Assembly (NCBI GenBank): GCA_051294905.1 | Contig: CM119371.1 | Span: 7,874,001 to 7,938,000, forward strand | Source: Botryllus schlosseri | Lineage: Eukaryota | Direction: 5' to 3' | DNA: 64,000 nt | Shown: piece by piece, positions 930 through 19,751 of the stretch | How positions within the stretch are numbered: position 1 is the stretch's first letter | Layout of the letters: each line of letters starts with the position of its first letter | Translations under genes and position numbers: made by a program | The notes under the pieces: model-generated | Told to the model about the DNA's origin: nothing | Seen by the model: the letters and a program-made list of their open reading frames with translations, nothing else | Databases searched by the model: none

Positions 930-2256
930 AGTTGGTGAATTGTTGTTGTGATAAAACAGGAGGGATAAGGTTCAATGAAAACTCGTTACTATACACAAAA
1001 GATAGAAAACAAATCACGCAATAGTTAAAAGCTAGGAATATGCTTCACGCAAGGCCTGGTCATCAGTCAGATATACGGCCTGATCAATAGCAATAACAAT
1101 ATCCATGGGTTAGTATTCAATCCGCAAAATAATTTAGTTTAATAATGAATGAACAGCCACAAAGTAGATTGTAGCATAATAAAACTTCGCTCAAATTGAG
1201 GTACGAATGATTGACAGTGAAATTTGAAGACTTGTATTGCACGACGCGGTGTGTTGACATTGACTTTTTCCGCAAAGAGGGGTAATCTTTTAAAAATCAG
1301 GTATATGAACTATACGATGGTGTTCAGATTGTAATTGCTATAAACCAGATTATAATTACGGCACTCCATGACCATAAATTGAACGGAGGGCTAGGCTCTA
1401 AAGGGCCAGAATCATTTCACGAATTAGTATTGATTATGGATAGTGACTTTGGAAACTTGAACAACTTTTCCTAAAAATTTTTGCGTAATGAATAATTCTT
1501 AGCCGTCAAATATTTCAGATGCGCAATAATTGTAGCAATGAGCATGTCGTCATTGGACATTGCTGCGCCACAGTTCACCAAGGCTCGTCAAAATAAATAG
1601 AATCTTCCTGTTGGTTACTTGGAAAATTAATGACACATGGGCTTATTGCATTTCCACAGGCCTGGTATATATAGGGCTCAGCAACTACAATACATCTCTT
1701 TGTTGGTACAATTGTGGCCATGACAAGTGCTGAGGCCATGGAGCCCTCTGTTCTAGATGAACAGATTTGGACTGGAAAGTGGATTGTTGTTATAAAAAAT
1801 ATAGATAATATTCTCAAATCATGCCAAACATCGCCTGAAGCAGAAGATAGTGATTCCGAAAAGTAGGAAAATGAGGAGAGTAAACAAGGAATTGACGAGG
1901 CAACCTTGAAAAGCTATTTCGAAAGGAATCCTTCGATTTGGGGAGACAATACTGATTCGGAATTAGATCTCACAGACTCGGATGAAAGTTTGAGTATCTC
2001 GTCGGATACTGACTCTGGAAACGATGTTATAGAATCCTATCTTTTCCCACATCATGAATTAAGACCTTATCCAAATTCCGAGTCCGGTGATTTGACAGAC
2101 TCGGATGAGAGTCCGAATACCCTACCCGATACTGACTCTGGAGTCAATAGTAGCGATTCCGATCTACCCTCAGATCATGAACAGTTACGACCTCTTGACG
2201 AAGCAACTCTCAGGCGCCTTGATAGAATATTTTGGCGCCCCTGGAATAACGAGTAG
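930..2256 (+). pseudogene. Heavily decayed integrase-like ORF with acidic C-terminal tail
   Basis: Collinear motif remnants across stops and frameshifts: FNENSLLY, LHARPGH (1046-1063, HH of HHCC), YPW, VDIDFFRK, GPESFH...DSDFG, IWTGKWIVV (GPY-like), then the acidic ORF 1720-2256 with an in-frame TAG at 1864. No CxxC or clear catalytic E was found. Confidence 0.3.
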
Positions 2257-2400: not shown

Positions 2401-2863
2401 TGTAACCATGGAATAAGGACAGGTTATTCAGTAGATTTTAAGATAGAGAACAATTAGGCTGGTAGGTGATACAAAATAAAAGTTTGGTTTAATCAAGGCT
2501 GGTTAACCTTTTCAGTCTGAGGGTCACATTTGATTGACGAAATACTGCGCAGGCTATTACCGCGCGAAGCGCGAAAAAACTTTAGAAGTTCATAGGTCAA
2601 TGATATTGTAACTTGGCCGTGTTGCGGGCTTACCGTATATCGCTGGGCTAAGTTTACGGGAAATAGGCTATTCGGCACATGGACATATAGATAACGAAAG
2701 CTGCGACCAACATGCGTCAATCTTTCCGTGCCTAGGTTTCATGGTCAGCGGTATTACTGTGAACGCAAACGCAAGGTCACACATGTTCAACGGCACTTTG
2801 CCCCGTAATTGCGAGTATGGTTAGGCTCAATCTAAATAAATTGGCTGTTTATCCATGGTCACA
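2401..2863 (+). repeat. Candidate 3' LTR of the decayed element, or a MITE
   Basis: TGT...ACA ends with an imperfect 15-bp inverted repeat (tgtaaccatggaataa / ttatccatggtcaca). AATAAA lies about 25 nt before the end and a purine run (gaaaaaagga) just upstream. No TSD seen. Confidence 0.25.
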
Positions 2864-3389
2864 AAAATTCAGCAGCAATATTAAAAAACAAGGAATCGTG
2901 TGACAAAATGTTGCGTTAAGCTTGTAGAAAATTTTACTTTTGATGAATCTGGAGCAAACTACTTTGCTTTATTGTAATGTGCAAAAATATACCATTATGT
3001 GACTGGCTGACGGATCTGCCAATACGTCGGAATAGATATTTTAGTCATCACATCTCAAGTGTTGCAGCCAAACAAATATAATTTTTGCTTGACCTTGCAA
3101 GTTCACAATCAGTGCAATCCATTCTTGATATTTGAAATTTCGGAAATTACCTCGTGGGCCACGGATTAGCTGGCCCTGAGTTAAGGAAATTAGGAACTGA
3201 TAGGTTGTCAAGTGGCCAGAGATGACACTTTTTCTGGTAAAGGAATAATTAACCCCAAATAGGATTAATAAAGAGTTAGCAAAAGTCAGTGTTTGGAATA
3301 TCATTAACGATATCTTACAATAATCTCGGCTGAAAGAAACATTATTATTTTTTAAGGTGTAAAAATAACACGGTGTCGTAAATTAAATT

Positions 3390-3896
3390 ATGTCTGCATC
3401 AATAACTAAAGAACAATTATGGGAGCTATCTATTGAAAATATCGAACTATGGTATGAGGAACTTCGAGGGGTGAAAAAGACAGAGAGATTACAACGATGG
3501 AATGATTTTTTCGAAGACATTAAGAACAAAACTAGACATCATGCTGAAACCTTCTTCGAAGGAATGACAGTGAGCAATGAAAAGGTCAAAGAATGGCCAT
3601 GGCGAAATGACTATCGTAGAAAACATTTGAAAAATCGAAAGGTAGCAAAAGTAAAACCATACTTGCTAATAAAAACTGCCTCAAACAAACAGAATCGGAG
3701 TGCAGAAATAAGAGAAAGCTCTTCGACATCGTTAAGTAATACTCTTTTGACATCATCTGCAACAAACAATGACGCACCGCCTAATAACAATATCATGTCA
3801 AATGGAACTTATGCATCTTTTGGTAGTATAATGTTTTCGCAACAATCATCTTTTTATCAGTCTCGACCTACAACATCGCATCGCACTAACGAATAA
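3390..3896 (+). CDS. Orphan cargo protein (168 aa), W-rich helical N-terminus and S/T/N-rich tail
   Basis: ATG-initiated intact ORF, co-oriented with the cassette; no recognisable family. Confidence 0.65.
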   Translation: MSASITKEQLWELSIENIELWYEELRGVKKTERLQRWNDFFEDIKNKTRHHAETFFEGMTVSNEKVKEWPWRNDYRRKHLKNRKVAKVKPYLLIKTASNKQNRSAEIRESSSTSLSNTLLTSSATNNDAPPNNNIMSNGTYASFGSIMFSQQSSFYQSRPTTSHRTNE

Positions 3897-4019: not shown

Positions 4020-4880
4020 ATGTGTTACGGGCTATTGTGCAGTCCTAATACGGATCACAGGGTTGTCTACGAGTGGGCAAAGCAGTACGATCTTACGTAT
4101 AGGCAGCAGATGGTAATGGAAACCATAAAAACTGCGCCGGTTCGGGATCGTTTGATGAGCCTTTTGTTCGGAACTTGTGAGCGGGACAATCCAAGGGTAC
4201 AATATTGGCAACAATGTATGTACACCAAGGAGGACTGGACAAAGCTAGGAAAGCCTTTTCACCCGGTTGGGAATAGTGAATGCAAACAATGTTACCTTAT
4301 GAAGCACGTAAGACCGTATTTCAAGAATACCAGGCAGATTTTGGAACTTATGAATTTATGTCACGCCTATTTAATAGAAGCTTGTAGTATGCACAAAGGA
4401 CTAGATCAAAACACCGAAAGAGATAAAGGACATATAGTGCTTTATGTGTTATATCCAGAAGCAATAATAACCGCCATAGCTCTCCTGTTACAACAATATC
4501 GGGGGGCAAAAAACATGCGAACATTTTGTTTTACAAGATGTCGGATGGATGCAGAATATGAGTTCCTATTCGGGGGAAATCTTGAACAATGGAGGTTTAC
4601 ATACGGGTCCACAAACACGTTTGGTTATGTGGGAGGCGTTTTTATTCTACCGATTGACCAACTGTCGGAATCATCTTTTGAAAACTCGTTAAAACAAGAG
4701 GGAGACAAACAAATAGCCAAAAATACCAATTCGGAAACTACATCGGCGTTTAATATTGAGCCTTCGACCAGTAGAGAAAGTAGGCTTCCGAACGGACTAG
4801 GGGCTCCGACCCGAATGGTAGCTTTACGGAGACCCAGTTTAGACGGAACCCGTGCTGTTTCTGGTGTTAATATGGGCTGA
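4020..4880 (+). CDS. Orphan cargo protein (286 aa), family A, Cys/His-containing
   Basis: Long intact ORF; shares NPRxxYWxQ and ERD...(Y/F)PE..I.A(I/L)A with the ORF at 8245. Confidence 0.75.
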   Translation: MCYGLLCSPNTDHRVVYEWAKQYDLTYRQQMVMETIKTAPVRDRLMSLLFGTCERDNPRVQYWQQCMYTKEDWTKLGKPFHPVGNSECKQCYLMKHVRPYFKNTRQILELMNLCHAYLIEACSMHKGLDQNTERDKGHIVLYVLYPEAIITAIALLLQQYRGAKNMRTFCFTRCRMDAEYEFLFGGNLEQWRFTYGSTNTFGYVGGVFILPIDQLSESSFENSLKQEGDKQIAKNTNSETTSAFNIEPSTSRESRLPNGLGAPTRMVALRRPSLDGTRAVSGVNMG

Positions 4881-6109: not shown

Positions 6110-6123
6110 GGGGGGGGGAGAGG
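6110..6123 (+). promoter_or_regulatory. Candidate polypurine tract (plus-strand primer)
   Basis: GGGGGGGGGAGAGG in an otherwise very AT-rich spacer, followed by the inverted repeat CCCAATA-AG-TATTGGG (6131-6146). Confidence 0.4.
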
Positions 6124-6239
6124 TTTATTGCCCAATAAGTATTGGGTGATTAATGGATTGACAAATGTCTTAACGAGTATGGAGTATACCTTATAAGTTA
6201 TGAATGAAAAGTAAAAGTATTACATGAATCTCGAAAAAA

Positions 6240-6863
6240 TTGTCATATCCTGAAAATGGTAAATTGTTAAAATGTCGATGCAGGAATGAAAAGAAAATGT
6301 TAGATTTTGATTATATTGAAGGGTACAATCCATTGAATTGGTGTCTTTTGTACGATGTATATGATGAGTTGGATCTATTGAATCTGAAAGAATACGACAG
6401 CAATTATGAGAGATACCAGTTAAAAGAAAGAGTATGGGAATTGCTTACGGACCGAGTTGATTGGGTTAAACAAACAGACAATGGCCTAGTAGAGGCAGCC
6501 CTAGATGAGGAAATAACCTCAGAAATTTTTGATACGTTCAATCATGTGGTAGAAGAGATATTGGAAATAAGAGCGAAGGAATACATCTCTTTGGGAAGAA
6601 GAGTCATGTTGTATGAATTGATCAGAGGACTTGTGATGAAACTTACAAATACTAATATAACAAAGGATGTGTACCAGGAGAGAGACTATTGTAAAGATCC
6701 GCCACATATGGAACAATGGAATTGTCAGAATAATTTGGGAATAAAAGGCTATTCAAGTTCAATACATCGGCGAACAAAAAGGATAAGGTGTATCGAAATA
6801 CATCCTTACCCCTACGAAGGGGAAAGTGTGAACATTGACTCTATAATACCAGAACAATCATGA
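6240..6863 (+). CDS. Orphan cargo protein (about 190-210 aa), acidic helical
   Basis: Open frame. First in-frame ATG is at 6297; an ATG at 6224 would be in frame if the A6 run lost one base. Confidence 0.7.
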   Translation: MSYPENGKLLKCRCRNEKKMLDFDYIEGYNPLNWCLLYDVYDELDLLNLKEYDSNYERYQLKERVWELLTDRVDWVKQTDNGLVEAALDEEITSEIFDTFNHVVEEILEIRAKEYISLGRRVMLYELIRGLVMKLTNTNITKDVYQERDYCKDPPHMEQWNCQNNLGIKGYSSSIHRRTKRIRCIEIHPYPYEGESVNIDSIIPEQS

Positions 6864-6950
6864 GTAATGATAACGAATGTAAATAAGATTTTGACTTACA
6901 AAAGACACTTTTTCCGAAGGTATAAAGTAACAAAGTGTGTTATCTAATTC

Positions 6951-8000
6951 ATGAGTAAAATGAAACGAGTGGAACTACTAGTATTATGGCTGGGCATGTG
7001 TTATGCTATTTATCCGGAAATAATAGAACAAAAGAAGTGTACCACCTATGAAAGACGAACAATATTATACCCGGAATGCATGCAAGGAAGTAATTTGGTA
7101 CTTTGGTGTGACCATTCGAGTTATACAAGAATTCCGGATCCTGATAAGATATACCTGGCAAAATCTTGTCGGAATACCGTAAAGATATTCATCAACGACA
7201 GCTGCCTACGGGAAATAACCAAAGAACAATTGGAAAAATATAAAGACTTAGAGGTGTTGCATTGTGGTTGGAATAAAATCCAAACAATACCAGGAGGTGT
7301 CTTCTGCAAAAATGAAAAGCTTAGGGAGATAAACTTGAAACGAAACTACATCACAAGAATACAAAATGAAAGCTTTTCAGGCCTACACCGACTGGAAGAA
7401 CTGTACATGAGTAGCAATTTGTTGGAAGAGATTGAAGGATCAACATTTGCAAGTCTGAGAAACTTACGAAGGTTATATTTGGATAACAATTTAATAAAGA
7501 GACTAAAGAACGGAACATTCATTCACTTGCATCGTTTAAGAATACTGGATTTATCAAGAAACGCAATAAACGTTATAGAAGAAGGGGCGTTCAAAGGACT
7601 GAGGAAACTGGAAACTTTACATTTGGATGAAAATAGACTGGTTGAATTTGATATGACAATACTTGAATCTTTATGTAATTTAGAGAGATTAACGTTGTAC
7701 TATAATAACTTGCAATATTTTTCTCTGTCCTCCAACATATCGTTCAAATATCTACATACTATTGATCTTAGTTATAATCATGTTCAATTTCTTAGTGATC
7801 TTATATTGAGAAAATTACCAGATTTGGAGGTTTTGAAATTAAATGGAAATAATAATGAAACGTCTACCAAAAGACCCTATGTCCGTAAACAATCAAGATT
7901 ATATTATGATGAAATGAAAAGTCTCTCTAATCATGTGACTATACATTCAAAATGGATATTTGCCATTATTGTTGGGTTAACCACTATGGAACTAATGTAA
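6951..8000 (+). CDS. Secreted or GPI-anchored leucine-rich-repeat protein (Toll/VLR-ectodomain-like)
   Basis: Signal peptide (MKRVELLVLWLGMCYA), Cys-containing LRRNT, nine 24-aa LxxLxLxxNxI repeats, no LRRCT or TIR, hydrophobic C-terminal tail (WIFAIIVGLTTMELM). Intronless. Confidence 0.9.
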   Translation: MSKMKRVELLVLWLGMCYAIYPEIIEQKKCTTYERRTILYPECMQGSNLVLWCDHSSYTRIPDPDKIYLAKSCRNTVKIFINDSCLREITKEQLEKYKDLEVLHCGWNKIQTIPGGVFCKNEKLREINLKRNYITRIQNESFSGLHRLEELYMSSNLLEEIEGSTFASLRNLRRLYLDNNLIKRLKNGTFIHLHRLRILDLSRNAINVIEEGAFKGLRKLETLHLDENRLVEFDMTILESLCNLERLTLYYNNLQYFSLSSNISFKYLHTIDLSYNHVQFLSDLILRKLPDLEVLKLNGNNNETSTKRPYVRKQSRLYYDEMKSLSNHVTIHSKWIFAIIVGLTTMELM

Positions 8001-8244
8001 AATTTTTATGATAAATTAAAATTCAGTGAGGAATTTTAATATGGAACTATGTAAATGGCCTTATATATTTTGTATAAAGGAATTACTAAAAAGTATCAAA
8101 ATGTGTTTGGGATTGCGTTGCGATGATCCGGAAATACAACATTCGACATGGATACCCAAAAAAGAAACACTAATAGATAAATGATTAAAGTCGCTGAAGT
8201 TTCTGTTGACAACATATACATTAACGGACCACTTATGCGATATA

Positions 8245-8607
8245 ATGTACGACGAATTAAATCCTCGCCTATTATATTGGAAACAAAAGTATGGTTTTAC
8301 TACGTGTAACAATCATTGGCCTGGGAAACATCTGGTTGAAGATGAGTGGGAAGAAACTTATACAGGAAGCATTTATCCTGAAAAACCTATACAAATGGCT
8401 TTTGCAGAAATCTGCATAAATTGGGTAACAATTTTGAAAAGAGTAAATCCTGAAATGAGGGAATTTCTAAAAAAAGGGGATTCTGAAAGAGATCTCATAA
8501 TGTGGATAATCTTTCCGGAAGTTCAGATTTACGCGTTGGCAAGGACGCAGGAAATATCATTAAAGGAAGCTGATTGCCGATTTATGACTTTGAAAGTGCC
8601 TGCATGA
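8245..8607 (+). CDS. Orphan cargo protein (120 aa), family A paralog
   Basis: First ATG at 8245 (ORF track starts at 8206). Motifs NPRLLYWKQ and ERDLIMWIIFPE are collinear with ORF 4020. Confidence 0.7.
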   Translation: MYDELNPRLLYWKQKYGFTTCNNHWPGKHLVEDEWEETYTGSIYPEKPIQMAFAEICINWVTILKRVNPEMREFLKKGDSERDLIMWIIFPEVQIYALARTQEISLKEADCRFMTLKVPA

Positions 8608-8676
8608 AACTTACCCTTCCAATGTTTATGTATGCAGAAACTACTTTTGAAAAAGACAATTAAGTTTTAAATAAAG

Positions 8677-9624
8677 ATGAAGATTAAAGAACCCAGAAAA
8701 AGAAGAAATTTGTTCAATCTTGCTCGATGTGGTATAATATCAAGTGACCGAAAATGTATAAAGTTTCTGCGATCACGGCAACTCCTTGTTCGAAAGGCAA
8801 CATGTTTTAAATGTGGACAACAAATGATTGAAGAAAAATGCAAAAGAACTATGGATGGATATAGATGGAGGTGTCCGATTTCAAAGTGTCGGACTACCAC
8901 GTCCATAAGGAAAAGATCGCTATTTGAAGGAAGCAAAATAAGACTCACTAAACTTGTAATGATGATTTATCTTTGGACCATTGATGTATCTCAACGACAA
9001 ATAGCTTTTGAAGCACACGTCAGCAAGAGAACAATGGTGAATTGGACCAAGAAACTTCGTAAGATATGCTCTGGTGAGATGGAAAGAAGAGGTACCATAA
9101 TAGGGGGAATATCACAAGGTAAATCACATGTAATTCAAATTGATGAAACGTTTGTGGCCAAAAGAAAATTTAATCGTGGAAGGATAATACGTCAACGCTG
9201 GGTTTTGGCTGGAATAGATATGGAAACGCGAGAAATGTTTGCAGAATTGGTACCTGAAGAAGGGCGAAAAACCTCGGTATTATCAGAAATAATTAGGAGA
9301 CACGTTAAAGAGGGATCTACTATATGGACTGATTCATTTGCCAGTTACCGCAAGTTGGAAAGTCTGGGGATGAATTATAAACATTCAATAGTTAATCATG
9401 ATCGCGAATTTGTTACTTCAGAAGGTATAAATACACAATTAATCGAGGTGTCTTGGAATTTTTTCAAAGCTGCTATTAGAAGACTGAATGGGGTATCAAG
9501 ACCACTGATTCCCCATTACTTACAGGAGTGGCTTTGGAAAAGAAGAGTGGCTTTGGAAGAAAGATTTCAGCGATTTCTGGAGATAATTGTCCTTGATCCC
9601 AATTTCCGGAGGTTGGAACATTAA
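8677..9624 (+). CDS. Merlin/ISXO2 (IS1595-like) DDE transposase, intact
   Basis: N-terminal CFKC...YRWRC...C zinc motif, SIR.GS.FE, catalytic QIDET, WTDS..SY..L, H..VNH, NTQ.IE.SW and HYLQEWLW. All match the Merlin pattern. Confidence 0.92.
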   Translation: MKIKEPRKRRNLFNLARCGIISSDRKCIKFLRSRQLLVRKATCFKCGQQMIEEKCKRTMDGYRWRCPISKCRTTTSIRKRSLFEGSKIRLTKLVMMIYLWTIDVSQRQIAFEAHVSKRTMVNWTKKLRKICSGEMERRGTIIGGISQGKSHVIQIDETFVAKRKFNRGRIIRQRWVLAGIDMETREMFAELVPEEGRKTSVLSEIIRRHVKEGSTIWTDSFASYRKLESLGMNYKHSIVNHDREFVTSEGINTQLIEVSWNFFKAAIRRLNGVSRPLIPHYLQEWLWKRRVALEERFQRFLEIIVLDPNFRRLEH

Positions 9625-9667
9625 AAACAACATTTGTCCTTATGAGTAATATCATCTGATATGAGTA

Positions 9668-10093
9668 ATGGGCTATACAAGGTTGTTGGTATGTGCAAAT
9701 AGTTTTGTTTATGTTAAGTTTAGACCGTGTCCATACCATACGATACCTGACAGCAGAGTTGCTTGGCTAAGGATGGTGATTGTACATGAACGAATAGAAG
9801 AAAAAATAGAAAACTTTCCAACTCTGACAGCCAATGACATGGAATACGTATTGAAGGATTTTCTTGTCTGGTTATACCGGGACCATGAGGTGGCGGAACA
9901 ATTGAAATGCGCTAAAAGAGTACTGGAGCAAATTGTGGAAGAAAACTTTGGAGAAAGCCCTGCATACTATTTGTATGTATTTCTACGATATGTGTTGGCC
10001 ATAGCTAATGTTGATGAACATTGGAACATTACTAGCAGAACTATTGCCGGTTTTTCACGGGCAATGTATACTATGGATAAACGACTGAATTAG
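9668..10093 (+). CDS. Orphan cargo protein (up to 141 aa)
   Basis: ATG-initiated intact ORF starting 43 nt after the transposase stop; predicted helical. Confidence 0.65.
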   Translation: MGYTRLLVCANSFVYVKFRPCPYHTIPDSRVAWLRMVIVHERIEEKIENFPTLTANDMEYVLKDFLVWLYRDHEVAEQLKCAKRVLEQIVEENFGESPAYYLYVFLRYVLAIANVDEHWNITSRTIAGFSRAMYTMDKRLN

Positions 10094-10154
10094 TAATGTT
10101 TTCTTTTCTTTTTATGTGTATCAAGTATTGTTGGATAATATTAATCTACACCGA

Positions 10155-10610
10155 ATGGCAAAACATAGATTACATTTTGAACGGCGAAAGATCGATCAAG
10201 AAATTCAAACAAACCCTGTAATTTTGAAAGCAGGGCCATTGGACGAGTTAGACATCTATGTTTGGCAAGCACTTTTGCGTGGACCCTCAAAAACACCATA
10301 TGAAAAAGGGACATTTCTCCTTAGAATTGAATTTCCAACGGAATATCCATTCAAGCCTCCAAAGATCAAATTTGAAACCAGAATTTTCCATCCGAATATA
10401 AGCCGTAAGGGTACCATATGTATTGACATTCTTGCAAATGAATGGTCACCTGCTTTAACGTTAGGAAAAGTATTGGTCTCGATTTCGTCATTATTGGCTT
10501 CTCCAAACCCAGAAGATCCAATGGATGTTGAAAGCGCCAGACTGTATCGGGATGACTATGATAGTTATCAGAAGACGGCACGAAAATGGACTGATATGTA
10601 CGCTAAGTAA
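10155..10610 (+). CDS. Ubiquitin-conjugating enzyme E2, Ubc4/UBE2D-like, intronless
   Basis: GP...TPYEKGTF...FP.EYPFKPPKIKF.TRIFHPNI...GTICIDIL..EWSPAL; catalytic Cys at 10419 and HPN motif intact; ATG at 10155. Confidence 0.95.
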   Translation: MAKHRLHFERRKIDQEIQTNPVILKAGPLDELDIYVWQALLRGPSKTPYEKGTFLLRIEFPTEYPFKPPKIKFETRIFHPNISRKGTICIDILANEWSPALTLGKVLVSISSLLASPNPEDPMDVESARLYRDDYDSYQKTARKWTDMYAK

Positions 10611-10748
10611 ATTGTCATGTATCCAGTATGCTTATCACAATTAATGAATATTCTAGAAGTGTTGTTATACTTATATGGGTGTCGAAAATGTTATTAAGGG
10701 AAATTTCCGGTCCAATAATCAATATAAAATTCTCTATGTTAAGAAAAT

Positions 10749-11207
10749 ATGGGGGATAAAATTGCTAGAGTAAAGCATGAACTTGACGTTTTCTTTGATT
10801 CCTTTGAAAAGAAATATGAACACAAAGACTTTGGCAAGTGGGCTGCAACAACCCGGGATGAACTGGAGACATTTATGACACCTTACTTGAGGATTTGCAA
10901 CCTGAGAGTATCCGATAAACTGTTTGATGCGCTATACAAAAAGCATTTAGCCATCTCCCGCATGATATTGTTTGAAAATTATGAACATGCTAAGTTTTGT
11001 TGGTTTGTCTTCTGTGTTGGATTACATCCTGCATCGGATGTCATACCTGAAGGCTGGGTGTTGGAAAGAATGCCTTGTTCTGACAGAACTGGATTTTGTA
11101 TTTATACCACGGATAAACTCTTTAATGATACTTTTCCCTCTGATGTGAGAGCTGCTATACTTATACATAAAATGAAATATAATGGCTGTGATAATTATGA
11201 ACAATGA
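10749..11207 (+). CDS. Orphan cargo protein (152 aa), family B
   Basis: Shares NYE.AK..WF.....HP....I...WV.E with ORF 11371. Confidence 0.75.
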   Translation: MGDKIARVKHELDVFFDSFEKKYEHKDFGKWAATTRDELETFMTPYLRICNLRVSDKLFDALYKKHLAISRMILFENYEHAKFCWFVFCVGLHPASDVIPEGWVLERMPCSDRTGFCIYTTDKLFNDTFPSDVRAAILIHKMKYNGCDNYEQ

Positions 11208-11370
11208 ATTCATGGATTGTATATTTCATTTTTTGCTAACTTAAATGTCTATTAATCATGTATGACGTGTATGCCAATTTAATTGAGTTTTACATTGAAT
11301 TATCTCGTTTCCGTCTGCATGACCAAATGGACCCTTACCTGGATGATTAATTTCTTTCAGAAAATTGAGT

Positions 11371-11820
11371 ATGAGTAACGTGGTGATAAATGATAATGGT
11401 GATGTTGATGTCACCAGAATAGTTGGATCTAATGTGGCGGAACAAGATTTGATCTTTTATTTTTGGTTATTCAAAGAACGATATGAAGCGAGAATACTTC
11501 CCTCTCATAGATGGTATGAGTGGTCAAAGACTCCACCCAAATATATTAAACTTGGATTGAAATGTTTTTGCAAACGAGTTAACGAAACCCTTTCCGATGA
11601 AAAGCCCTTTGTTATTGACTACCCAGGAATATTAGAAAACCACAAAATGATAAAAGACATGGCCTCTGGAAATTATGAAAGGGCTAAACTTTTGTGGTTC
11701 AACTATATGGCTCGAATGCATCCTATGGAAAATTTGATTACGGATGAATGGGTGAAGGAACAAGCCGAATCTACGGAACCCTTTTACCCTGAGGATACTG
11801 TAAATGTCCTACTTCTATGA
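11371..11820 (+). CDS. Orphan cargo protein (149 aa), family B paralog
   Basis: ATG at 11371, preceded by the acceptor-like tttctttcag; collinear with ORF 10749. Confidence 0.75.
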   Translation: MSNVVINDNGDVDVTRIVGSNVAEQDLIFYFWLFKERYEARILPSHRWYEWSKTPPKYIKLGLKCFCKRVNETLSDEKPFVIDYPGILENHKMIKDMASGNYERAKLLWFNYMARMHPMENLITDEWVKEQAESTEPFYPEDTVNVLLL

Positions 11821-11907
11821 GAATTATTAAGCCCATGAATGCTATTGTTTTCATGTACTTCTACTGTATGTATATAAGGCGTTATAGACTGCTACGCCCT
11901 ATATTTT

Positions 11908-12220
11908 AAGCAGGACCCTAGGGACTTAAAAATCCCTAGTTTTCAGGGAAACAAAATCCAGAATTTTACGGTGCGAACCCTTATTATAGGCTAAAAGAAA
12001 ACAAAAATCACGACTCCGTCACGTTCACGGTAATACGCAATGTCTCGAGTGACTTGGCTGCACACTATTTTAACGCTTGAACAAATTAAGTGACCGCTTG
12101 TTCTTGTGTGTATATAATGTGCTGTATATGGCTGCACTATAAGCCAGACCCTAGAGACCATCATCACCCTCTAGTTTAACCAAAACAAAATCCTAGATGC
12201 TTTAGGTGCGAATGGTTATT
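11908..12220 (+). ncRNA. Tandem pair of structured RNA motifs with compensatory base changes
   Basis: Copies at 11908-11985 and 12141-12220. Hairpin ctaggga/tccctag vs ctagag/ctctag; second stem aggg/ccct vs taacca/tggtta; invariant linkers aaacaaaat and ggtgcgaa. Confidence 0.5.
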
Positions 12221-12999
12221 GAGAAAAATAATGAAAAACAATATAAAACTTAATAAAATCTTGAACAACTATACCCATTAAGATTACGAAATAACAAACA
12301 CTAAAACATGTTTGAACAATCTACAATGCCTGTATTAAGTGGCATCTCAGTTAAGGGTAGTATCATGCGGTCCGATTAAGAGGATTATAGTGATTTTGAT
12401 TGCACTGAAGACATGACGTCCTTAATGTTGATATGTTACTTTGAAATGTTATGATCACAATAATATTGATGATTATGATGCTGAATGGAGTTACAAAGTA
12501 TTTGAAATGTAGTTGATATTTACGGCAGGACAGGCCGTCGCATGAATTATATGCGTAAACAAACCTTGGAGTATTGAAAATGTTTATTAATCATGTATGA
12601 TGATGTATAGGTTAAACCATGCCTTGTGTTATAATTGATGAATGATGTGTATGCCAATTTAACCAAGTTTTGCATAGAGTTACCTCATTTCCGTCTACGT
12701 GATTAATGATTGGAGTATTTGGTTGTATTAAGGTTTTAGATTACTTGTAAAAGGTTAGATTAGAGCTTTGGACCTAATGGTCATTGGCTGTTTGGAAACA
12801 AGACAATATTACAACTACGGAATACTTCAATCAACATTTACGACTTTGAAAAATCTCAAATCAACATCTACAGATCTACGAACGTCGTCAGTACTACACA
12901 AGAGAGCAAATAGTGTCAACTTTGTCCTACGAAGTATCCCGAACAAGTGTGGACTACTCGCATAACAATCGTTGTGGAGCTGCACTATAAAAACAAAAT

Positions 13000-13017
13000 T
13001 GGTGGCCAGTACGGGGA
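13000..13017 (+). promoter_or_regulatory. Primer-binding site complementary to the tRNA-Ile(AAU) 3' end
   Basis: TGGTGGCCAGTACGGGGA is the reverse complement of UCCCCGUACUGGCCACCA, the conserved metazoan tRNA-Ile(AAU) 3' end as recalled. A U5-like ...ACA ends at 12995, 4 nt upstream. Confidence 0.85.
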
Positions 13018-13048
13018 ATACTTCCGGTGCTCAGACATTGACCAATCG

Positions 13049-13318
13049 ATGCTTTCTAAGACGACTATCGTAAAACTTGTACTTGTCGTATCCTTGCTTT
13101 CATCATCCGTATCTCTCCTGATCATATTGTCAGCAATTTATCTGCACGTATCGCCTGGAGCGCTTTCTAATCTGTTGAACATAGTTTTGGGATCTAATAG
13201 CAGCGAATCTACTGCTTACGTTCAACCCACGAATACGCCGCAGGGATCTACAGTATATTTTAACTTGTCTTCACCTGATCTACTACCTTCGGTCAACAGT
13301 ACTTTCTCCGGTCGATAG
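13049..13318 (+). CDS. Small single-pass (type II-like) membrane glycoprotein, 89 aa
   Basis: ATG 32 nt after the PBS; hydrophobic IVKLVLVVSLLSSSVSLLIILSAIYL followed by three N-glycosylation sequons (NSS, NLS, NST). Confidence 0.65.
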   Translation: MLSKTTIVKLVLVVSLLSSSVSLLIILSAIYLHVSPGALSNLLNIVLGSNSSESTAYVQPTNTPQGSTVYFNLSSPDLLPSVNSTFSGR

Positions 13319-13324
13319 AAAGGA

Positions 13325-14376
13325 ATGCGAAGGATGTTGAAAGCATTTAAAAGGAAAAAGCCGTCAGAAGTGACGGATGAACTCAAGCAAGGTATTACTT
13401 TGCTTAAAGCAACACAAAAACGTCATGAAGATGTACGAAGACAAGAAAGACAACTTGCTAAGGATGTGGCCGAACAAACGGAATTACTAAAAGAGGTGAA
13501 AACAGCTCTGCCGGAAACTATGAAAGGTTTAGAGAAGGCAAAGAAAGAGGTTCGAAAAGCTCAAGCGGACCTCAAAGCTGTTTGTGATGCCACAACAAAA
13601 GTTAGCGGGAAGGTCTCCACCGACGTGCTGAATGACATTCTTACGTCAGAATTTGAGCTTGGAAAGTCGCATGCACAGGCTACGCGACATAGCATCCAAT
13701 CTCCCGTTTTGACAGTATCTCCAACTACACCAGAATATGATCCTCCGGCTTACGTTCCTCTCGATGAACAGCTGTCTGGTGATTTAAAACAAGGACCAAC
13801 GATGACGGTTCGCAAGGGTCTGGATTGTCACACTGTAACGGCAGTCTATCCTAAACTACCACGTTCTGACTCGACCACGTTTTCAGATTCCGGCAGGGGA
13901 ACTACACCATGCTTCCACGTGGGAAGTGGGGCACGCGCCAAACAGAATAAGCAAAAACCCGTAGAAATACCAAGCTTAATTGAACGTGGGGGGAGCGAGC
14001 TCCCCGTGGCATCAAAACCAAAGAAGAATCCCTTAGATAAGTATATGGGGTATCGAGGATGGCAGGAACGGCGCAACGAAGAGAAGGGTTCTCGAAGACG
14101 AGCGGGAAGTGCGGATGGCGCCTCCCAAAGGGTGACCTTTCATACTCCAGGCCAGGAACACTCGGATGCTGAAGATTCTGAAATCGACTTCCAGGCCAGA
14201 CTGAAACAGATTTCCAAAGGTATACAAGATAACATCAGGTCCCTACAGGGCAATGCATATTCTCGGAACGCCGCGGAAGAATCTCTTGAGGAGGAACTTT
14301 CCGACAACTCTAACTCTCCGGATATACCTCGCGCTACCTCCACTCCAAAAGAGTATGGGGGGAGGGTTAGGCGGCG

Positions 14377-14407
<31 letters not shown>

Positions 14408-14497
14408 CGACAACCGCAACCGCACCAATATCCTGGTGTTTCGGCCCCAGTGCTCAACGTGTCTACTAAAATGCAATCAGAAAAAGAAATGCTCTAG
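13325..14497 (+). CDS. gag: Gag N-terminal protein (matrix-like coiled coil, late domains, polyQ)
   Basis: Basic N-terminus, heptad coiled coil, PPAY (13742-13753), YPKL (13847-13858), Q10 (14378-14407). Ends in a TAG in frame with the next ORF. Confidence 0.7.
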
Positions 14498-14500
14498 CTT

Positions 14501-16213
14501 ATGATGGACCCTGGAGACATGCCACTGCTAAAATGGATGGAAAATTCAATGCGACGAATACGCCATGGTACTGGAAATACGGATGTGGATGTTATTTTGG
14601 CTAATGCGCTGCAGAAGAAATTGAGGGCTGCTGGCCGACACAAGCAGGCTACCCAACTGGGAAATTTTTTTAATACCAATTCGGGGGAAGCAGAGTGGGA
14701 ATCGGTTATGCGATCTCTTTCATTATCTAATCCCCAGGGTTTAGTAAATGATGAAAAGATCATTGGGGATTTCCGCAGAAATTATCGGTGGGAGGATGAG
14801 CCCCTACCTCTGCTTAATAGCGCTTTGAAGCAACTGGAAATAGACATGGATAGTTTTATTGAAGATAATCCGGATGGATTGCGTCTTTTCCGAAATCTAA
14901 GACAACGACTTCCCGAAGCGCTCAGATTGATGTTACGAGGCTGGGAGGAAGAGAAAAGATGGCGGGATGTTGCGGAGGAACTACAACTTGTTTGGAACTC
15001 CGAGTTTCTGGACGAACAAGAGACGCGCCCCAGGTATCAGGAAAAAAAGGAAGTACGTGATACAAAACCGTCCTTGCCGCCGGTACACATTTATAATGTT
15101 CAACCTGCAGGGCAAATAATGCAGAGTTATCCCACCTATGGTAACGATGACAGTCAGCTCAATACTCCTCCTCCACCCGGTGAAACCCCACCGCCGGTGG
15201 TACAATCACCTTCGCCCCTGCAACCACTGAATAACTTTGGGGGGGCAACACCTCCTGGATCACCTAGGGGGATCTCACCACGTCAGCTTACCAATGCAGG
15301 CCAGGAACCGATACCACGTCGGAATCCTCAACGTGCAGCGCGCGACAATCGTTTCCCTACCCGCATCATGAATGGTAATGGATTTGGTAGGCGAGGACGA
15401 GGCTCGAGGGCCAGGCCCGTACAACAACAGAATGGGCGCACTGCATCATCGAGACCTAACGGACAGACAACGAGAATAACAAGGTCTTCACGTGCTAATC
15501 CAGGACCGGGAATCTCGAACCGAAGTCCACGAATGGCGAATACACAAGACTCCGGGATGGGTGCAGACAGCTCACAGATTACGCCTTCCAGCAGCCAGGA
15601 AGCCCGCAACATTGCGGATAGTCAAGGTGAGCGATACAATTTTCTTGGAAATCCGAATATTTTTGCCCCTCTAGGCTTGTATCTAAATCCCACCCAGGGA
15701 CAATCCCTGTCCGTCTGTTACTACTGTAAGGCACCGGGACATCAATCCCGAAATTGCGTGGCTAAATTCATACTGTGGCTAAACGATAAGGTTCTTGCCA
15801 GAGATGAGGAATTAGGATGGATAATTCGTGGGCGAGCACGACCTGTACCCCCTCATGTTAAAGAGTCTGCTGAACGAAACTGGAAACCGTTTCTGGAAAG
15901 AAATAACATACTTACAATTGAGGGTCTTGATCGATATCTTGCTGCTCAAGGTTCACCATCATTTACACAAAGAACCGCTCTGTGCGAAGCCTATTATGAT
16001 ATCAGGCCAAAAAATCGTGATAGAACCCACTGGCATGATAGGGATCAATGGGGTCCTCATGGACCACCTACACGTCCATCTGGGGGAAATACCCACGTGG
16101 CCTGGGCGAAACCTCAATATCATGAGCGCCCGCGTCGATATGATGCTTCATATTGGACGGACGAGGAGCTAAATCAAGGTGTACGACTTTCAAAAAACGC
16201 CATGGGGTGCTGA
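14501..16213 (+). CDS. gag: Gag capsid/nucleocapsid protein with CCHC zinc knuckle
   Basis: Helical capsid-like N-terminal ~200 aa, Pro/Arg-rich linker, CYYCKAPGHQSRNC (CX2CX4HX4C); overlaps pol in the -1 frame. Confidence 0.88.
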   Translation: MMDPGDMPLLKWMENSMRRIRHGTGNTDVDVILANALQKKLRAAGRHKQATQLGNFFNTNSGEAEWESVMRSLSLSNPQGLVNDEKIIGDFRRNYRWEDEPLPLLNSALKQLEIDMDSFIEDNPDGLRLFRNLRQRLPEALRLMLRGWEEEKRWRDVAEELQLVWNSEFLDEQETRPRYQEKKEVRDTKPSLPPVHIYNVQPAGQIMQSYPTYGNDDSQLNTPPPPGETPPPVVQSPSPLQPLNNFGGATPPGSPRGISPRQLTNAGQEPIPRRNPQRAARDNRFPTRIMNGNGFGRRGRGSRARPVQQQNGRTASSRPNGQTTRITRSSRANPGPGISNRSPRMANTQDSGMGADSSQITPSSSQEARNIADSQGERYNFLGNPNIFAPLGLYLNPTQGQSLSVCYYCKAPGHQSRNCVAKFILWLNDKVLARDEELGWIIRGRARPVPPHVKESAERNWKPFLERNNILTIEGLDRYLAAQGSPSFTQRTALCEAYYDIRPKNRDRTHWHDRDQWGPHGPPTRPSGGNTHVAWAKPQYHERPRRYDASYWTDEELNQGVRLSKNAMGC

Positions 16214-19200
16214 TTGATCCGGTGAATCAGCTCCCAGATAAATTGATATTTCAACACATAAAAACTGTACATAACTCTTCTTTACCATTGTTTACATTTC
16301 TCGATATGCCGGATGACCCCCTACAGCCCGATTTTACGGAATTGTTTGGCAGCCAACTGTTGTATTTGGTTGATACAGCAACTGGTACGAAATTCCTAGC
16401 TGACACGGGGAGCATCCCCAATTTAATAATGAAAAAGGTCGTTATAACTAAATACCCACAAAGCTGGGAAGAACGTCAACCAATAGACATGGAATTGACT
16501 GGAATAGGTGGCTCTTCCCAAGTGGATTCCTTTGTAGTGATTGATTTTGATGGACTGTCCGTTCCATTTGTGACCGGATCAGGAGTCCCACTTAATATCA
16601 TAGGGCTGAAATGGATTGAGGAAATTCAACAATTACCAAGCATAACTACGGAATTTAAAACCCCGTCTAACGCAAATGATGAGTTGTCTTTAGCGTCACT
16701 ACTTGAAGAGAATCATTGTGATCAAGGTAACGGAACCAAAGTTGGAAGCAGTATTAGCTACCCTGTAACCAACGATGGGTTGATGGATGCTGCAAACCAA
16801 TTTAGCGTGGAGCGGAAAATGGCCGCTGGCGCGAGTACCGAGATGGAAGTAACCACTGGTGCGATCGACGAGTTGAAAATAGCAACTAATGTCATACCTA
16901 ACCCATGGGAAACTGGTGGTGTTGAGACAGGAATGCCTCTCTACACCATTAATAAAAACGTCGAGCGTGGAATCCCCGCTGGCGTAAAAATGGAACTGCA
17001 CGAGAAAACTGATCCTGAAAACTTTCGTGGATGCACTTGTCCGAATGGCCTTGAGGATTCGGCCCATAGTTGCATGACGACAGTCACAGTAATAAGTACT
17101 TTCCCAAACGGTTCAAATGAAGCAGCAATTGCCGGTCAACCGGATACACGTCCGGACATGTCCGACAAGGAGTCTGGGGATTTTAGGATGCACGTCTCCC
17201 CAGAAAAAGGGTCCCCGGCGGAAAAGGAGTCCGTCGGCGTGGCGATAGGTGCGGGCACGCGCCTAGATCAGAGGCCTACATCGAAGGACCTCGCCCTCTC
17301 TCCACCAACACCCACAACTCGGTCATCACGAATCTCAAATCAACCTAGGGCTGGGCCAATTACTACGTATGCTTTACAGAAGGACACTCACCCACGCGTC
17401 AAGACGGAGCTAGAAAATCTCTGCGCACAATCAGTAGCGCTGGCCAAACTCCCATACAAACCTCCTGATCTAACTACTCCAGAAAATACCATCATCTCTG
17501 ATGATGTCTGGAAAGCAATTTACGAACCGTTCGCGTCCGAACTCGAGGACCTGCGAGGCCATCTTGGCGGCCCGCAAACCATGAAATACAAATGTGACAT
17601 AGAACTTAAAGATCCCTCGACGAAACCATTTGTGTCTGGGCCTTATAATCTGAAGGGGGAGGGCCAGGCAAAGGCATTGAAAGAAGCGGTAGATAACTTT
17701 CTGGACTTAGGCGTCATTGAACGAGGTTTTGCTGAATGGAAGTTGGCTATCTTTGTGGTCCCTCAGAAAATGAATGAAAGACAAAAACAAGAGGACGGAT
17801 GGAAGCAAGCCTGGAGAGTAGTACAGAATCTCCAACCCCTTAATGCGGCCATAAAATCAATAGAAGTACCTCCACCTCTTGTACCAGATGTAAAGCAGCT
17901 CGCCCAAGGCAGGGAAGTGCTTTCTCTCCTTGATTTGAAGAAGGCCTATTTCCACATGGATGTAACGGAAAGATCTAAACAATATGTGGGTATAGCCATC
18001 AAAGGGATGCATGTAAGATGGCGTAAAATGCCGATGGGGCTTAAAACTGCGGTGGCTCTTTGGAGCGCGAATATGCAGGAATGCGTGGTGAAACCAATTA
18101 CGGAAAATTATCGTAAATACATGAAGCAAAATGGTCGGTCGGATGAGGAGAATGCGACGCCTATGGAGGCCTACATAGACGATATTTTCCTTAGCACAAA
18201 AACGGTAGAAGATCATCTAATACTACTACGCATGGTATTTGAACAGCTCGCCAAGATGAAACTGACTGTCAGCATCAATAAGTGTTTCATTGGAAAGCGA
18301 AGGGTGAACCTTTTGGGGGCAACTTTGACGGGGAAAGAAATTGAGGTTCAGCCTGAAAGAATAAGGGCTTTACGCGAACTCTCACCACCCCACAATGTAT
18401 ACGAGTTAAGGGGGTGGATTGGCGCACTTCGCTATATCTCGGAGCATATACCTGAGTTAAGTTTGAAGCTGGCCAAATTCGATGCGCTAACAGGCAAGGT
18501 CCCTGCGACACAAGGACGAGTGACTCCTGTGCTATGGACCAATGAATTACTGCAGGACTTCAAAACGGCACAAGCAGCCCTTGATGACGCTAAGGTCTTG
18601 TACCACGTAGATCCAAATCTTCCTATTTTTGTGGAAACAGACGCTTCAGATATTGGGTTTGGATCAATCATTTTTCAGACAGAAAAGGGGTGTAAGCCAC
18701 CTTTCGAAGAGGTTTACCCAATTGCTTACTACAGTCAAAAGTGGGCGACTCCAACGGCAAAAGCTTATGATCCCTGTACAAAGGAATTGAAAGCCTTAAA
18801 GGATTCGGTGGAAAAATGGCAATCAATGTTGAGAGCCTTACCCTTTACAATAATCACTGATAACACTGGGGTATTTGGGCTCCTCAAAAGAATGACGGAT
18901 AAAGCAAAAAATCCAAGCCCAAAACCCCTGATTCAGAGGTGGCTCAATCATCTCGCAGGATTCCAAATAAAAGAGGTAATTCATTTAAGCACGATGCAAG
19001 TATTTACGTCAGATGGATTGTCTCGATCTTATTGGATGGAAATGGCTGCGGGAGAGGATGATCCACATGTTTGGGCAACAATTCCTAAGAAAAAGAGTAG
19101 TTCGTACCTACAGAAAAGACCCCGACCGGAAAAAATACAGCAGATGCTGATGTATCATTGCCGCCATGAGCTTTGTGACAACTCGGTGGACGGGTTCCAT

Positions 19201-19626: not shown

Positions 19627-19726
19627 AGCTGTTTTTGGCAGAGTGTAAATATGTGATATAATAGGGGTGAACGGCCGAAACTCTTATAATGGGTGTAAAC
19701 GGGAAAAACTGAAACCTCGTAACTAG

Positions 19727-19751
19727 AAAAAATGCTGAGTCAGCATTTTTT
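19727..19751. repeat. 25-bp palindrome with a central AP-1-like TGAGTCA
   Basis: AAAAAATGCTGA-G-TCAGCATTTTTT, flanked by direct ACCTCGT repeats (19714-19720 and 19752-19758). Confidence 0.8.

What the first reader, a model, noticed from the sequence alone, without database searches (positions are those of the whole stretch)
6110..13017. Permuted layout: cargo lies upstream of the PBS, implying a ~6.9-kb gene-filled LTR, an integrated circle, or a tandem
Seen: the PBS at 13000 with a U5-like ACA end at 12995 defines the right edge of a 5' LTR, yet element-like genes continue about 10 kb to the left and no second LTR copy is visible. The only strong G-rich PPT upstream is at 6110-6123. Known: LTRs lie between PPT and PBS; one-LTR circles and caulimovirid genomes integrate as permuted copies. 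Inference: either (a) 6124-12995 is a giant LTR holding eight genes, (b) a circular genome was opened between pol and the cargo, or (c) two elements share one LTR.
Basis: partly seen in the sequence, partly recalled or inferred. Interest (0 to 1): 0.72.

Follow-up and report, generated by a model that had tools for sequence, protein, structure and literature searches.

The report
Permuted integrase-less retroelement with transposase
This retrovirus-like element in a sea-squirt-type genome has no integrase and no paired terminal repeats; its odd gene order is best explained by a circular reverse-transcribed genome cut open at a fixed site by its own DNA transposase, and it carries a copy of the host's spliced-leader RNA just before the primer site.

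Summary
The layout is real. There is a perfect tRNA-Ile primer site at 13000, a G-rich tract at 6110, eight ORFs between them, more cargo to the left, and no second LTR in the window. The interval does not behave like a duplicated LTR: contig depth there is about half that of gag-pol in 3 of 3 DNA runs. Pol (PR-RT-RH-Tpt1) lacks integrase, as do its relatives. The cargo holds a Merlin/IS1595 transposase with its DDE residues, and the element appears to stop just after pol at a Merlin-like end (about 19,754). Best reading (0.6): option (b), amended. A circular reverse-transcribed genome is opened at a fixed inverted-repeat junction by the transposase. No circle, left end or genomic transcript was seen. 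The scan has already noted this family on other DNA of this genome (unchecked notes); my literature searches did not find it. Not seen in the notes I retrieved: a complete spliced-leader RNA-like unit (exon, GT donor, Sm motif) at 12,708-12,771, placed like the splice donor in the CaMV leader.

The parts
1675..2256 (+). Broken acidic ORF (in-frame stop at 1864-1866, internal 123-nt duplication); possible further cargo
   Evidence: Frames; repeat; no Pfam hit and no PHROG hit for 1867-2253. Membership in the element not shown.
2481..3300 (.). High-copy host repeat (MITE-like) inserted among the cargo; edges approximate
   Evidence: Depth 13-40 times that of cargo in bins 2335-3668 for X1 and X5, 7-20 times for X9; matches at 30483-30772
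3390..3896 (+). Cargo ORF, 168 aa, unknown
   Evidence: no Pfam hit above cut-off
4020..4880 (+). Cargo ORF, 286 aa, unknown; weak PWP3A-B_C hit below cut-off
   Evidence: no homolog found
6110..6123 (+). G-rich purine tract, candidate plus-strand primer (PPT)
   Evidence: function not tested
6297..6863 (+). Cargo ORF, 188 aa, unknown
6951..8000 (+). Intronless leucine-rich-repeat protein, 349 aa, hydrophobic ends
   Evidence: LRR_8 E 2e-42
8245..8607 (+). Cargo ORF, 120 aa; weak PWP3A-B_C hit below cut-off
   Evidence: pairwise likeness to ORF 4020 not significant
8677..9624 (+). Merlin/IS1595-type DDE transposase, 315 aa, open frame, D156/D219/E257 present
   Evidence: PF12762 E 1.6e-17; 73% identical full-length relative P0170; linked to ORF 8245 in contigs of X5 and X9 (records 14 and 20)
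9668..10093 (+). Cargo ORF, 141 aa, unknown
10155..10610 (+). Intronless E2 ubiquitin-conjugating enzyme (UBE2D-like)
   Evidence: UQ_con E 3e-47; PDB hits to UBE2D2/D3
10749..11207 (+). Cargo ORF, 152 aa, paralog of the next ORF
   Evidence: 26% identity over 121 aa, E 9e-9
11371..11820 (+). Cargo ORF, 149 aa; acceptor-like TTTCAG 10 nt before its ATG
11859..12341 (+). Two diverged promoter-like units of about 240 nt (TATA-like at 11871 and 12111); AATAAA at 12252
   Evidence: alignment; motifs; start and poly(A) sites not mapped
12708..12771 (+). Spliced-leader RNA-like unit: exon 12708-12732, GT donor 12733-12734, Sm-type motif AGCTTTGG 12764-12771
   Evidence: Exon identical to the 'Chordata 1' SL of PMC3795323 Table 1; one copy in the window, 0 of 100 shuffles; Ciona Sm motif per PMC7986045; 5057 RNA reads begin at 12708 and leave near 12738-12742
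13000..13017 (+). Primer-binding site, tRNA-Ile(AAT)
13049..13318 (+). Hydrophobic 89-aa ORF in the gag frame
13325..14497 (+). 390-aa ORF in the gag frame, separated from the CCHC ORF by one in-frame stop
   Evidence: L001 reads through the matching place in one frame
14501..16213 (+). Gag-like ORF with CCHC knuckle; A-AAA-AAC -1 slippery site at 16192-16198
   Evidence: zf-CCHC; homologous to L001, L002; slippery-site motif class recalled
16144..19626 (+). Pol: protease (DTG), RT (YIDD), RNase H, Tpt1/KptA-like tail; no integrase
19657..19754 (+). Candidate right terminal inverted repeat: 28-nt repeat x1.9 (19657-19710), palindrome 19727-19751, ending in CC
   Evidence: depth about doubles at 19745 in X5 and X9 but not X1, and loose ends at 19687 in X5; no partner in the window
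19755..19762 (.). Candidate 8-bp target duplication (right copy only)
   Evidence: Position inferred from the Merlin rule (PMC8101967); left copy not in the window

Best explanation
The window holds the right part of one large, integrase-less reverse-transcribing element stored as a permuted single copy. Its replicative form is a circle: promoter/R/leader - PBS - gag - pol(Tpt1) - TIR/TIR junction - further genes - cargo - PPT - cargo. RT primes on tRNA-Ile at 13000 and on the G tract at 6110 and makes circular DNA, as in caulimovirids, so PPT-to-PBS is a single-copy U3-R-U5 equivalent that is free to fill with genes. The Merlin-type transposase cuts the circle at the abutted inverted repeats after pol and inserts it, which puts cargo upstream of the PBS in every copy. 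The SL-like donor in the leader would let cargo mRNAs carry the host's spliced leader. SHOWN: layout, PBS, no integrase, transposase, SL unit, interval not duplicated. PARTLY SHOWN: right end. INFERRED: PPT use, circle, transposase-driven insertion, role of the SL unit. Whether the RNA template comes from an excised circle or from an end-to-end transcript with a template jump is open.
For: No integrase. Pfam finds none; 18 of 18 Ty3-like relatives with Pfam integrase domains match only PR/RT/RH in the 64 kb; 0 of 88 short frames in the gaps between ORFs and right of pol, up to 31 kb, reach a Pfam cut-off. The loss is family-wide and old: P0001-P0004, P0022, P0029, P0093 and L002 carry a Tpt1-like domain after RH, P0043 a dUTPase, and none an integrase. 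These 8 rows form one side of a branch with SH-aLRT 99 against 24 other RTs (quick tree). The RT machinery is kept: perfect PBS, CCHC, frameshift site. The best solved-structure match is CaMV RT 8r0s, E 2e-35, ahead of Ty3 at 5e-29. The order TATA, AATAAA, splice donor, PBS over about 860 nt matches the CaMV leader elements described in PMC5902531. The interval is not over-represented in 3 of 3 DNA runs. The transposase is linked to its neighbour in X5 and X9 contigs. The right end has subterminal repeats, a terminal CC, a depth rise at 19745 in 2 of 3 runs, then single-contig, indel-rich flank from 20017 in X5 and X9. As leads only, earlier notes report 18-60 kb TIR-bounded copies with 8-bp duplications in this genome.
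Against: No circle junction was seen: none of the 15 of 68 joints shown links the pol end to cargo. The left TIR and left duplication are not in the window. X1 shows no depth rise at 19745, and the tool warns that depth is no copy number. No listed piece spans the element. One RNA run (about 6 in 100 read) gave depth mostly under 2.5 per mate over the element outside the SL, with no joints and no start cluster. The PPT is motif-only, is not followed directly by TG, and two more purine tracts lie in gag-pol. A lone linear copy cannot yield a terminally redundant RNA without excision or a jump, and I found no report of Merlin circles. The transposase sits mid-cargo here, whereas earlier notes place it beside env at an end. 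Only 1 of 10 cargo ATGs has a clear TTTCAG acceptor close by. 300-nt windows of the leader do not fold unusually (z -1.0 to -1.8; 9 of 80 windows reach -2).
Confidence: 0.6

Rival explanations
1. A Merlin cut-and-paste DNA transposon has captured a gag-pol cassette with its leader and PBS as passenger cargo. The whole unit moves as DNA, and RT does not copy it.
For: Merlin-type end and transposase. Gag-pol depth is about twice cargo depth, so the cassette occurs with other neighbours. No circle or long RNA seen.
Against: Integrase-less Pol is kept at 35-48% identity across distant relatives. A perfect PBS, a frameshift site and a strong G tract would decay if unused, and an integrase-less cassette has no other route into the genome.
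Confidence: 0.17
2. A caulimovirid-like circular genome was integrated once at a random break by host repair; the transposase is incidental cargo.
For: Single permuted copy; no integrase; CaMV-like RT and leader order. Repair-driven integration is the known route for caulimovirids (PMC10377300).
Against: The break falls in the non-coding gap 128 nt after the pol stop, at a repeat-bearing CC end with raised depth. L002 also ends 77 nt after pol, though that may be just a contig end. Earlier notes report fixed ends (unchecked).
Confidence: 0.1
3. 6124-12995 is a true giant LTR, present twice in full elements and as solo copies.
For: It is bounded by the G tract and the PBS. LTRs up to 6.5 kb exist in Ogre (PMC6431247). 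In X1 depth is 1.69 times that left of the tract, and several joints or loose ends in X5 and X9 fall at 6058-6091. LTR-bearing endogenous pararetroviruses are reported in grasses (10.1101/2025.06.08.658526, abstract).
Against: Depth is 0.41-0.54 of gag-pol. There is no copy after pol and no integrase to use TG..CA ends. The CA is 4 nt off the PBS and is absent in L002.
Confidence: 0.06
4. Two elements in tandem share one LTR, the left one continuing beyond the window.
For: The left end is outside the window.
Against: The right element has no 3' LTR, PPT or cargo after pol, and no gag, pol or PBS lies left of the tract in the window.
Confidence: 0.04

Closest known systems
Caulimoviridae (CaMV) and endogenous caulimovirids (PMC10377300 and PMC5902531 passages; PMC11363490 listing only)
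   Same: PR-RT-RH without integrase; no paired LTRs; internal tRNA PBS at the end of a long leader holding a poly(A) signal and a splice donor; best PDB match is CaMV RT
   Different: Animal host; tRNA-Ile primer, not Met; no movement protein found; Tpt1 tail on Pol; own transposase and a TIR-like end; host-derived cargo; circle not demonstrated
Ty3/gypsy (Metaviridae), including giant Burro and Ogre (PMC6431247 passages) and errantiviruses (PMC13524379 passages)
   Same: Gag with CCHC, -1 frameshift, PR-RT-RH order, PBS, G-rich tract; giant cargo-rich members exist
   Different: No integrase, no second LTR, and cargo upstream of the PBS
Merlin / IS1595 DNA transposons (PMC8101967 passages)
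   Same: DDE_Tnp_IS1595 transposase with DDE; candidate end reading GG on the opposite strand; internal tandem repeats
   Different: Carries gag-pol, PBS and 10 or more other ORFs; only one end visible here
Teratorn (piggyBac plus alloherpesvirus; PMC10175614 and PMC6431247 passages)
   Same: Virus-like genome given a cut-and-paste transposase and TIRs; an excision-to-circle cycle is proposed there too
   Different: DNA-polymerase herpesvirus rather than a reverse-transcribing element; different transposase superfamily
DIRS retrotransposons (mechanism recalled; PMC3266345 seen as listing only)
   Same: RT element that integrates a circular cDNA with an enzyme other than integrase
   Different: Tyrosine recombinase, no protease and no tRNA PBS (recalled); none of these traits fits here
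Ascidian SL RNA genes (PMC3795323 Table 1; PMC7986045 passages)
   Same: Exact 25-nt chordate SL exon, GT donor, AGCTTTGG Sm motif
   Different: Single copy embedded in a retroelement leader 292 nt before the PBS; the donor-to-Sm distance (29 nt) is slightly beyond the 2-25 nt pattern used for Ciona

Membership tests
Ty3/gypsy LTR retrotransposon (Metaviridae) | Gag plus PR-RT-RH in that order | tested here: met
Ty3/gypsy LTR retrotransposon (Metaviridae) | Integrase after RNase H | tested here: not met
Ty3/gypsy LTR retrotransposon (Metaviridae) | Two direct LTRs flanking gag-pol | tested here: not met
   No copy after pol; depth not doubled; other copies not readable
Ty3/gypsy LTR retrotransposon (Metaviridae) | tRNA primer-binding site upstream of gag | tested here: met
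   18 of 18 to tRNA-Ile(AAT)
Ty3/gypsy LTR retrotransposon (Metaviridae) | PPT used for plus-strand priming | tested here: inconclusive
   Motif only
Caulimoviridae | No integrase, no LTRs | tested here: met
   definition in PMC10377300
Caulimoviridae | RT in the caulimovirid clade | tested here: inconclusive
   CaMV RT is the top PDB hit, but no labelled caulimovirid was in the tree
Caulimoviridae | Met-tRNA primer | tested here: not met
   PBS is tRNA-Ile; Met-tRNA per PMC5902531
Caulimoviridae | Movement protein, plant host | tested here: not met
   No such Pfam hit in 15 ORFs; chordate SL in host mRNAs
Caulimoviridae | Circular dsDNA episome and terminally redundant RNA | tested here: inconclusive
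   No junction among the 15 of 68 joints shown; RNA depth too low
Merlin / IS1595 transposon | DDE_Tnp_IS1595 domain with DDE triad | tested here: met
   fold model too poor to add (pLDDT 35)
Merlin / IS1595 transposon | TIRs of 24-462 bp starting GG at both ends | tested here: inconclusive
   One candidate end at 19754; partner not in the window
Merlin / IS1595 transposon | 8-9-bp target-site duplication | not testable with these tools
   Left end outside the window and no genome held
DIRS retrotransposon | Tyrosine recombinase | tested here: not met
   No such Pfam hit in 15 ORFs or 88 short frames
SL RNA gene | SL exon, GT donor, Sm site | tested here: met
   chance of the Sm 8-mer within 45 nt is about 5e-4
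SL RNA gene | Transcribed as a short capped RNA that donates its exon | not tested
   Reads at the exon are host trans-spliced mRNAs and cannot be assigned to this locus

The most novel reading that the evidence does not exclude
An animal 'pararetrovirus' lineage: a tRNA-primed, reverse-transcribing, probably enveloped virus of tens of kilobases. Its genome is a circle; it replaced integrase and LTR ends with a Merlin transposase and TIRs, fills its single U3-equivalent with host-modulating genes (LRR, E2), and carries its own spliced-leader RNA module, so that its polycistronic cargo is matured into mRNAs that look like the host's own.
Probability: 0.35. Interest if true: 0.92.

Novelty: categorically new. 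Interest (0 to 1): 0.76.

Why it matters
Every classified Ortervirales family either integrates with its own integrase and LTRs or, like caulimovirids, has no integration step (PMC10377300). An element that primes on tRNA but enters the genome through a cut-and-paste transposase would be a further life cycle. It would also be a living model for how integrase loss and circular genomes arose. The layout gives direct tests: a TIR-TIR junction by PCR, and gaps at the PBS and PPT. The embedded spliced-leader module suggests a way for a virus-like element to express many genes by borrowing host trans-splicing.

Tried and rejected
Whole-genome dot-plot: impossible, no genome held. Searches for full relatives with flanks found nothing in viral contigs or prokaryote genomes. 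Metagenomes gave 6 loci, of which 2 are short family contigs (L001, L002). No RNA holder was listed on record; no conclusion on expression drawn. A tRNA look-up in viral contigs gave one match (L007) that is not a tRNA gene by ARAGORN. No tRNA or Rfam hit in the window. Exact inverted 11-mers between 1-6300 and 19600-24000: 18 hits, none with a flanking duplication. Cargo families: 0 of 11 PHROG hits, atlas blank or below 0.9, no short homologs of ORF 4020. The idea that ORFs 4020 and 8245 are paralogs linking both sides of the tract was dropped (E 0.014). AlphaFold models of the transposase and Gag were too poor to search (pLDDT 35 and 45). Leader folding: the whole 909 nt gave z -3.4 on 20 shuffles but had no length-matched control, and 300-nt windows were ordinary, so it is not used as support. 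My first reading, that the element ran on past 21 kb, was dropped: X5 and X9 show one contig with many indels from 20017, as for host flank. The X9 joint 12259 to 6063 is between A-rich look-alike motifs and is not taken as a circle. The careful tree did not finish; the quick tree is cited. Sequence look-ups of earlier findings returned nothing.


Full report
OBSERVATION. The 18-mer at 13000-13017 is the exact complement of the 3' end of the human tRNA-Ile(AAT) template printed in PMC13439101 (one passage seen). It differs by one base from the Ile PBS in PMC1084362 (table passage). The purine tract 6110-6123 is the only plus-strand run of 12+ purines with 8+ G upstream of the PBS, out of 7 such runs in the window, and it holds the longest G run of the 64 kb. 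Eight ATG ORFs of 100+ aa lie between tract and PBS, two more lie further left, all on the + strand. Self-BLAST gave 5 hits with the query in 1-21,500, the longest 105 nt, so there is no second LTR. Two corrections: AATAAA is at 12252, and the ACA sits 4 nt from the PBS, with no counterpart before the PBS-like motif of relative L002 (that motif was not matched to a tRNA).

WHAT THE GENES ARE. Pol (16144-19626) is protease, RT, RNase H, then a Tpt1/KptA-like domain (PF01885, E 2e-9), then stop. There is no integrase. Eighteen of 18 Ty3-like relatives with Pfam integrase domains match only PR/RT/RH in the window, and none of 88 short frames in the gaps and up to 31 kb reaches a Pfam cut-off (the 89th frame listed was scanned). 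This is a family trait. Four close relatives among 21 hits and further members among the best 150 profile hits were examined. Of the family proteins scanned, P0001-P0004, P0022, P0029, P0093 and L002 have Tpt1 after RNase H, and P0043 has a dUTPase. P0023 aligns to the end of the window's Pol without a Pfam call, and P0026 and P0138 stop soon after RNase H. None has an integrase. Eight family rows form one side of a branch (SH-aLRT 99) against 24 other RTs in a quick tree (the careful search did not finish, and no labelled references were included). The best solved-structure match is CaMV RT (E 2e-35), then Ty3 (5e-29) and foamy virus (2e-20); this is similarity, not phylogeny. Gag has a CCHC knuckle and ends over an A-AAA-AAC site in the -1 relation to pol (motif class recalled). 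The gag frame is interrupted by stops at 13316 and 14495; L001 reads through the place matching the second. The cargo includes an LRR protein, a UBE2D-like E2, a paralog pair and, at 8677-9624, a Merlin/IS1595 transposase with D156, D219 and E257 and a 73% identical relative.

TESTING (a), (b) AND (c). No genome is held, so I laid three DNA contig sets and one RNA run on 1001-21000 at 85% likeness. A true LTR should be at least twice as deep as internal sequence. Mean depth over 6337-12339 is 0.54, 0.41 and 0.50 of gag-pol, and 1.69, 1.06 and 0.94 of the cargo left of the tract (X1, X5, X9). The tool warns that summed contig depth is no copy number, and X5 and X9 share flank alleles, so they may not be fully independent; still, the direction is against (a) in 3 of 3 runs. 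None of the joints shown (15 of 68, plus 12 of 14 rows with inserted letters) links the pol end to an LTR or to cargo. With most rows hidden, this is weak evidence either way. Joints at 12048-12546 show that other copies share the last roughly 450 nt before the PBS but differ upstream, so the cargo side is variable. Contigs in X5 and X9 join ORF 8245 to the transposase, so the transposase is not private to this copy.

THE RIGHT END. After the pol stop come a 28-nt repeat x1.9 (19657-19710), a palindrome (19727-19751) and CC at 19753-19754. Depth at 19745 is 11,480 in X5 and 106 in X9, against 4,575-7,050 and 39-48 at the four listed positions in 19332-19506. In X1 it is 1,600 against 927-1,939, so no rise. 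Three X5 contigs have loose ends before 19687. From 20017 on, X5 and X9 show mostly one contig (about 2,200 and 30) with many indels, as expected for host flank. This fits a TIR of about 68 bp present at both ends of family members. Merlin TIRs are 24-462 bp, start with GG and make 8-9-bp duplications (PMC8101967 passages). The partner end is not in the window. Earlier scan notes, which are unchecked leads, describe 18-60 kb integrase-less gag-pol-env elements with Merlin ends in this genome. One describes a 13-kb transposase-fusogen unit 5.5 kb before this window. If that unit is this element's left end, the total would be about 38 kb, the size those notes give; I could not check it. These notes changed my reading from a random opening to a fixed one.

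THE SPLICED-LEADER UNIT. In the RNA run, 6071 of 6087 laid reads fit only partly. 5057 have a loose end before 12708 that I recognise from recall as a template-switch oligo, and the large groups leave near 12738-12742. Positions 12708-12732 are identical to the 'Chordata 1' spliced leader in PMC3795323 Table 1 (passages), occur once in the window, and occur in 0 of 100 shuffles. So these reads are host trans-spliced mRNAs, not proof of element expression, and the host is tunicate-like. The exon is followed by GT and, 29 nt further, by AGCTTTGG, the Ciona Sm-binding motif (PMC7986045 passages; chance about 5e-4). An exon alone could come from copying a trans-spliced RNA, as earlier notes report for LINEs and SINEs in this genome. 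Donor plus Sm motif point instead to capture of an SL RNA gene. The order TATA (12111), AATAAA (12252), donor (12733), PBS (13000) parallels the poly(A) signal, splice donor and Met-tRNA site in the 600-nt CaMV leader (PMC5902531 passages). A start at the SL itself is the alternative; no AATAAA follows it before the PBS. The 73 nt upstream of the unit are repeated at 79% before ORF 11371. Against a tidy splicing model, only 1 of 10 cargo ATGs has a clear TTTCAG nearby, and no RNA joint was listed.

MECHANISM. Shown: tRNA-Ile PBS, integrase-less Pol family, transposase, single-copy gene-filled interval, SL unit. Partly shown: a transposon-type right end. Inferred: RT makes a circle, with minus strand from the PBS and plus strand from the G tract; the transposase opens it at abutted TIRs after pol; every integrated copy is therefore permuted in the same way. 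The weak link is how a linear copy gives a complete template: either excision to a circle, as proposed but not shown for Teratorn (PMC10175614 passages), or an end-to-end RNA with a template jump. Confidence 0.6. Rivals: passenger cassette in a DNA transposon 0.17; random integration of a circle 0.10; true giant LTR 0.06; tandem 0.04.

KNOWN OR NOT. It works like a caulimovirid in its priming layout and like Teratorn in its integration. It fails membership of Metaviridae (no integrase, no LTR pair), Caulimoviridae (Ile primer, no movement protein, animal host) and DIRS (no recombinase), and it is inconclusive for Merlin. Seven searches of the held library for this combination listed no paper describing it; I saw titles and abstract starts for the top 20 or fewer of each. 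Passages of PMC13524379 had no mention of transposase or phosphotransferase, and passages of PMC6431247 had no mention of Merlin. The grass LTR-pararetrovirus preprint was seen as abstract and outline only, and PMC10377300 as passages. No supplements were read. Subscription journals and Repbase were not searchable, so an entry there cannot be excluded. The family itself was found before by this scan on other DNA of the same genome. What this window adds is the PBS-PPT geometry, the depth test against a duplicated LTR, and the SL RNA-like module, which none of the notes I retrieved mentions for this family.

VERDICT. Observation confirmed; interpretation partly supported (b, amended). Interest 0.76. 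Rated categorically new on the strength of RT plus transposase with no integrase or LTR pair, with the caution that the circle and the left end remain unseen.

Noticed in passing
window 11243-11361 vs 12578-12740: The stretch upstream of the SL unit is duplicated before ORF 11371. The duplicate's SL-equivalent is degenerate and ends in an acceptor-like TTTCAG instead of a donor.
   Followed up: partly
window 12131-12142 and 12979-12990: An identical 12-mer lies at the putative start site and directly before the PBS; it may be chance.
   Followed up: no
window 12708: The DNA has a G in front of the 24-nt leader, where RNA reads also begin. If that G is cap-derived, this copy passed through reverse transcription; a chance of about 1 in 5 is not excluded.
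   Followed up: no
window 6058-6091 and 12252-12262: An 11-mer containing AATAAA occurs at both places; an X9 contig joins 12259 to 6063, and other joints or loose ends cluster just upstream of the G tract.
   Followed up: partly
P0022, P0043: Family members swap the Pol tail: P0022 adds an Exo_endo_phos domain after Tpt1, and P0043 has a dUTPase after RNase H.
   Followed up: no
window 8803-8887: The transposase has two Cys pairs in its N-terminal part, though Pfam gave no Zn_Tnp_IS1595 hit; PMC8101967 says described Merlins lack that domain.
   Followed up: no
window 16900-17300: The variable Pol spacer between protease and RT has very high local depth at 16995-17012 in all three DNA runs, suggesting a short repeated motif.
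   Followed up: no
window 29096-30061: A small element with perfect 27-nt inverted ends, 912 nt apart.
   Followed up: no
window 47027-48108 vs 55722-56809; 57474-62008; 53351-53936: Host repeats: a duplicated block of about 1.1 kb at 90%, a 318-nt inverted pair, and a 289-nt hairpin.
   Followed up: no
L002 301-317: A relative has a different PBS-like motif starting TGGTGG, so the family may use more than one primer tRNA; not matched to a tRNA.
   Followed up: partly
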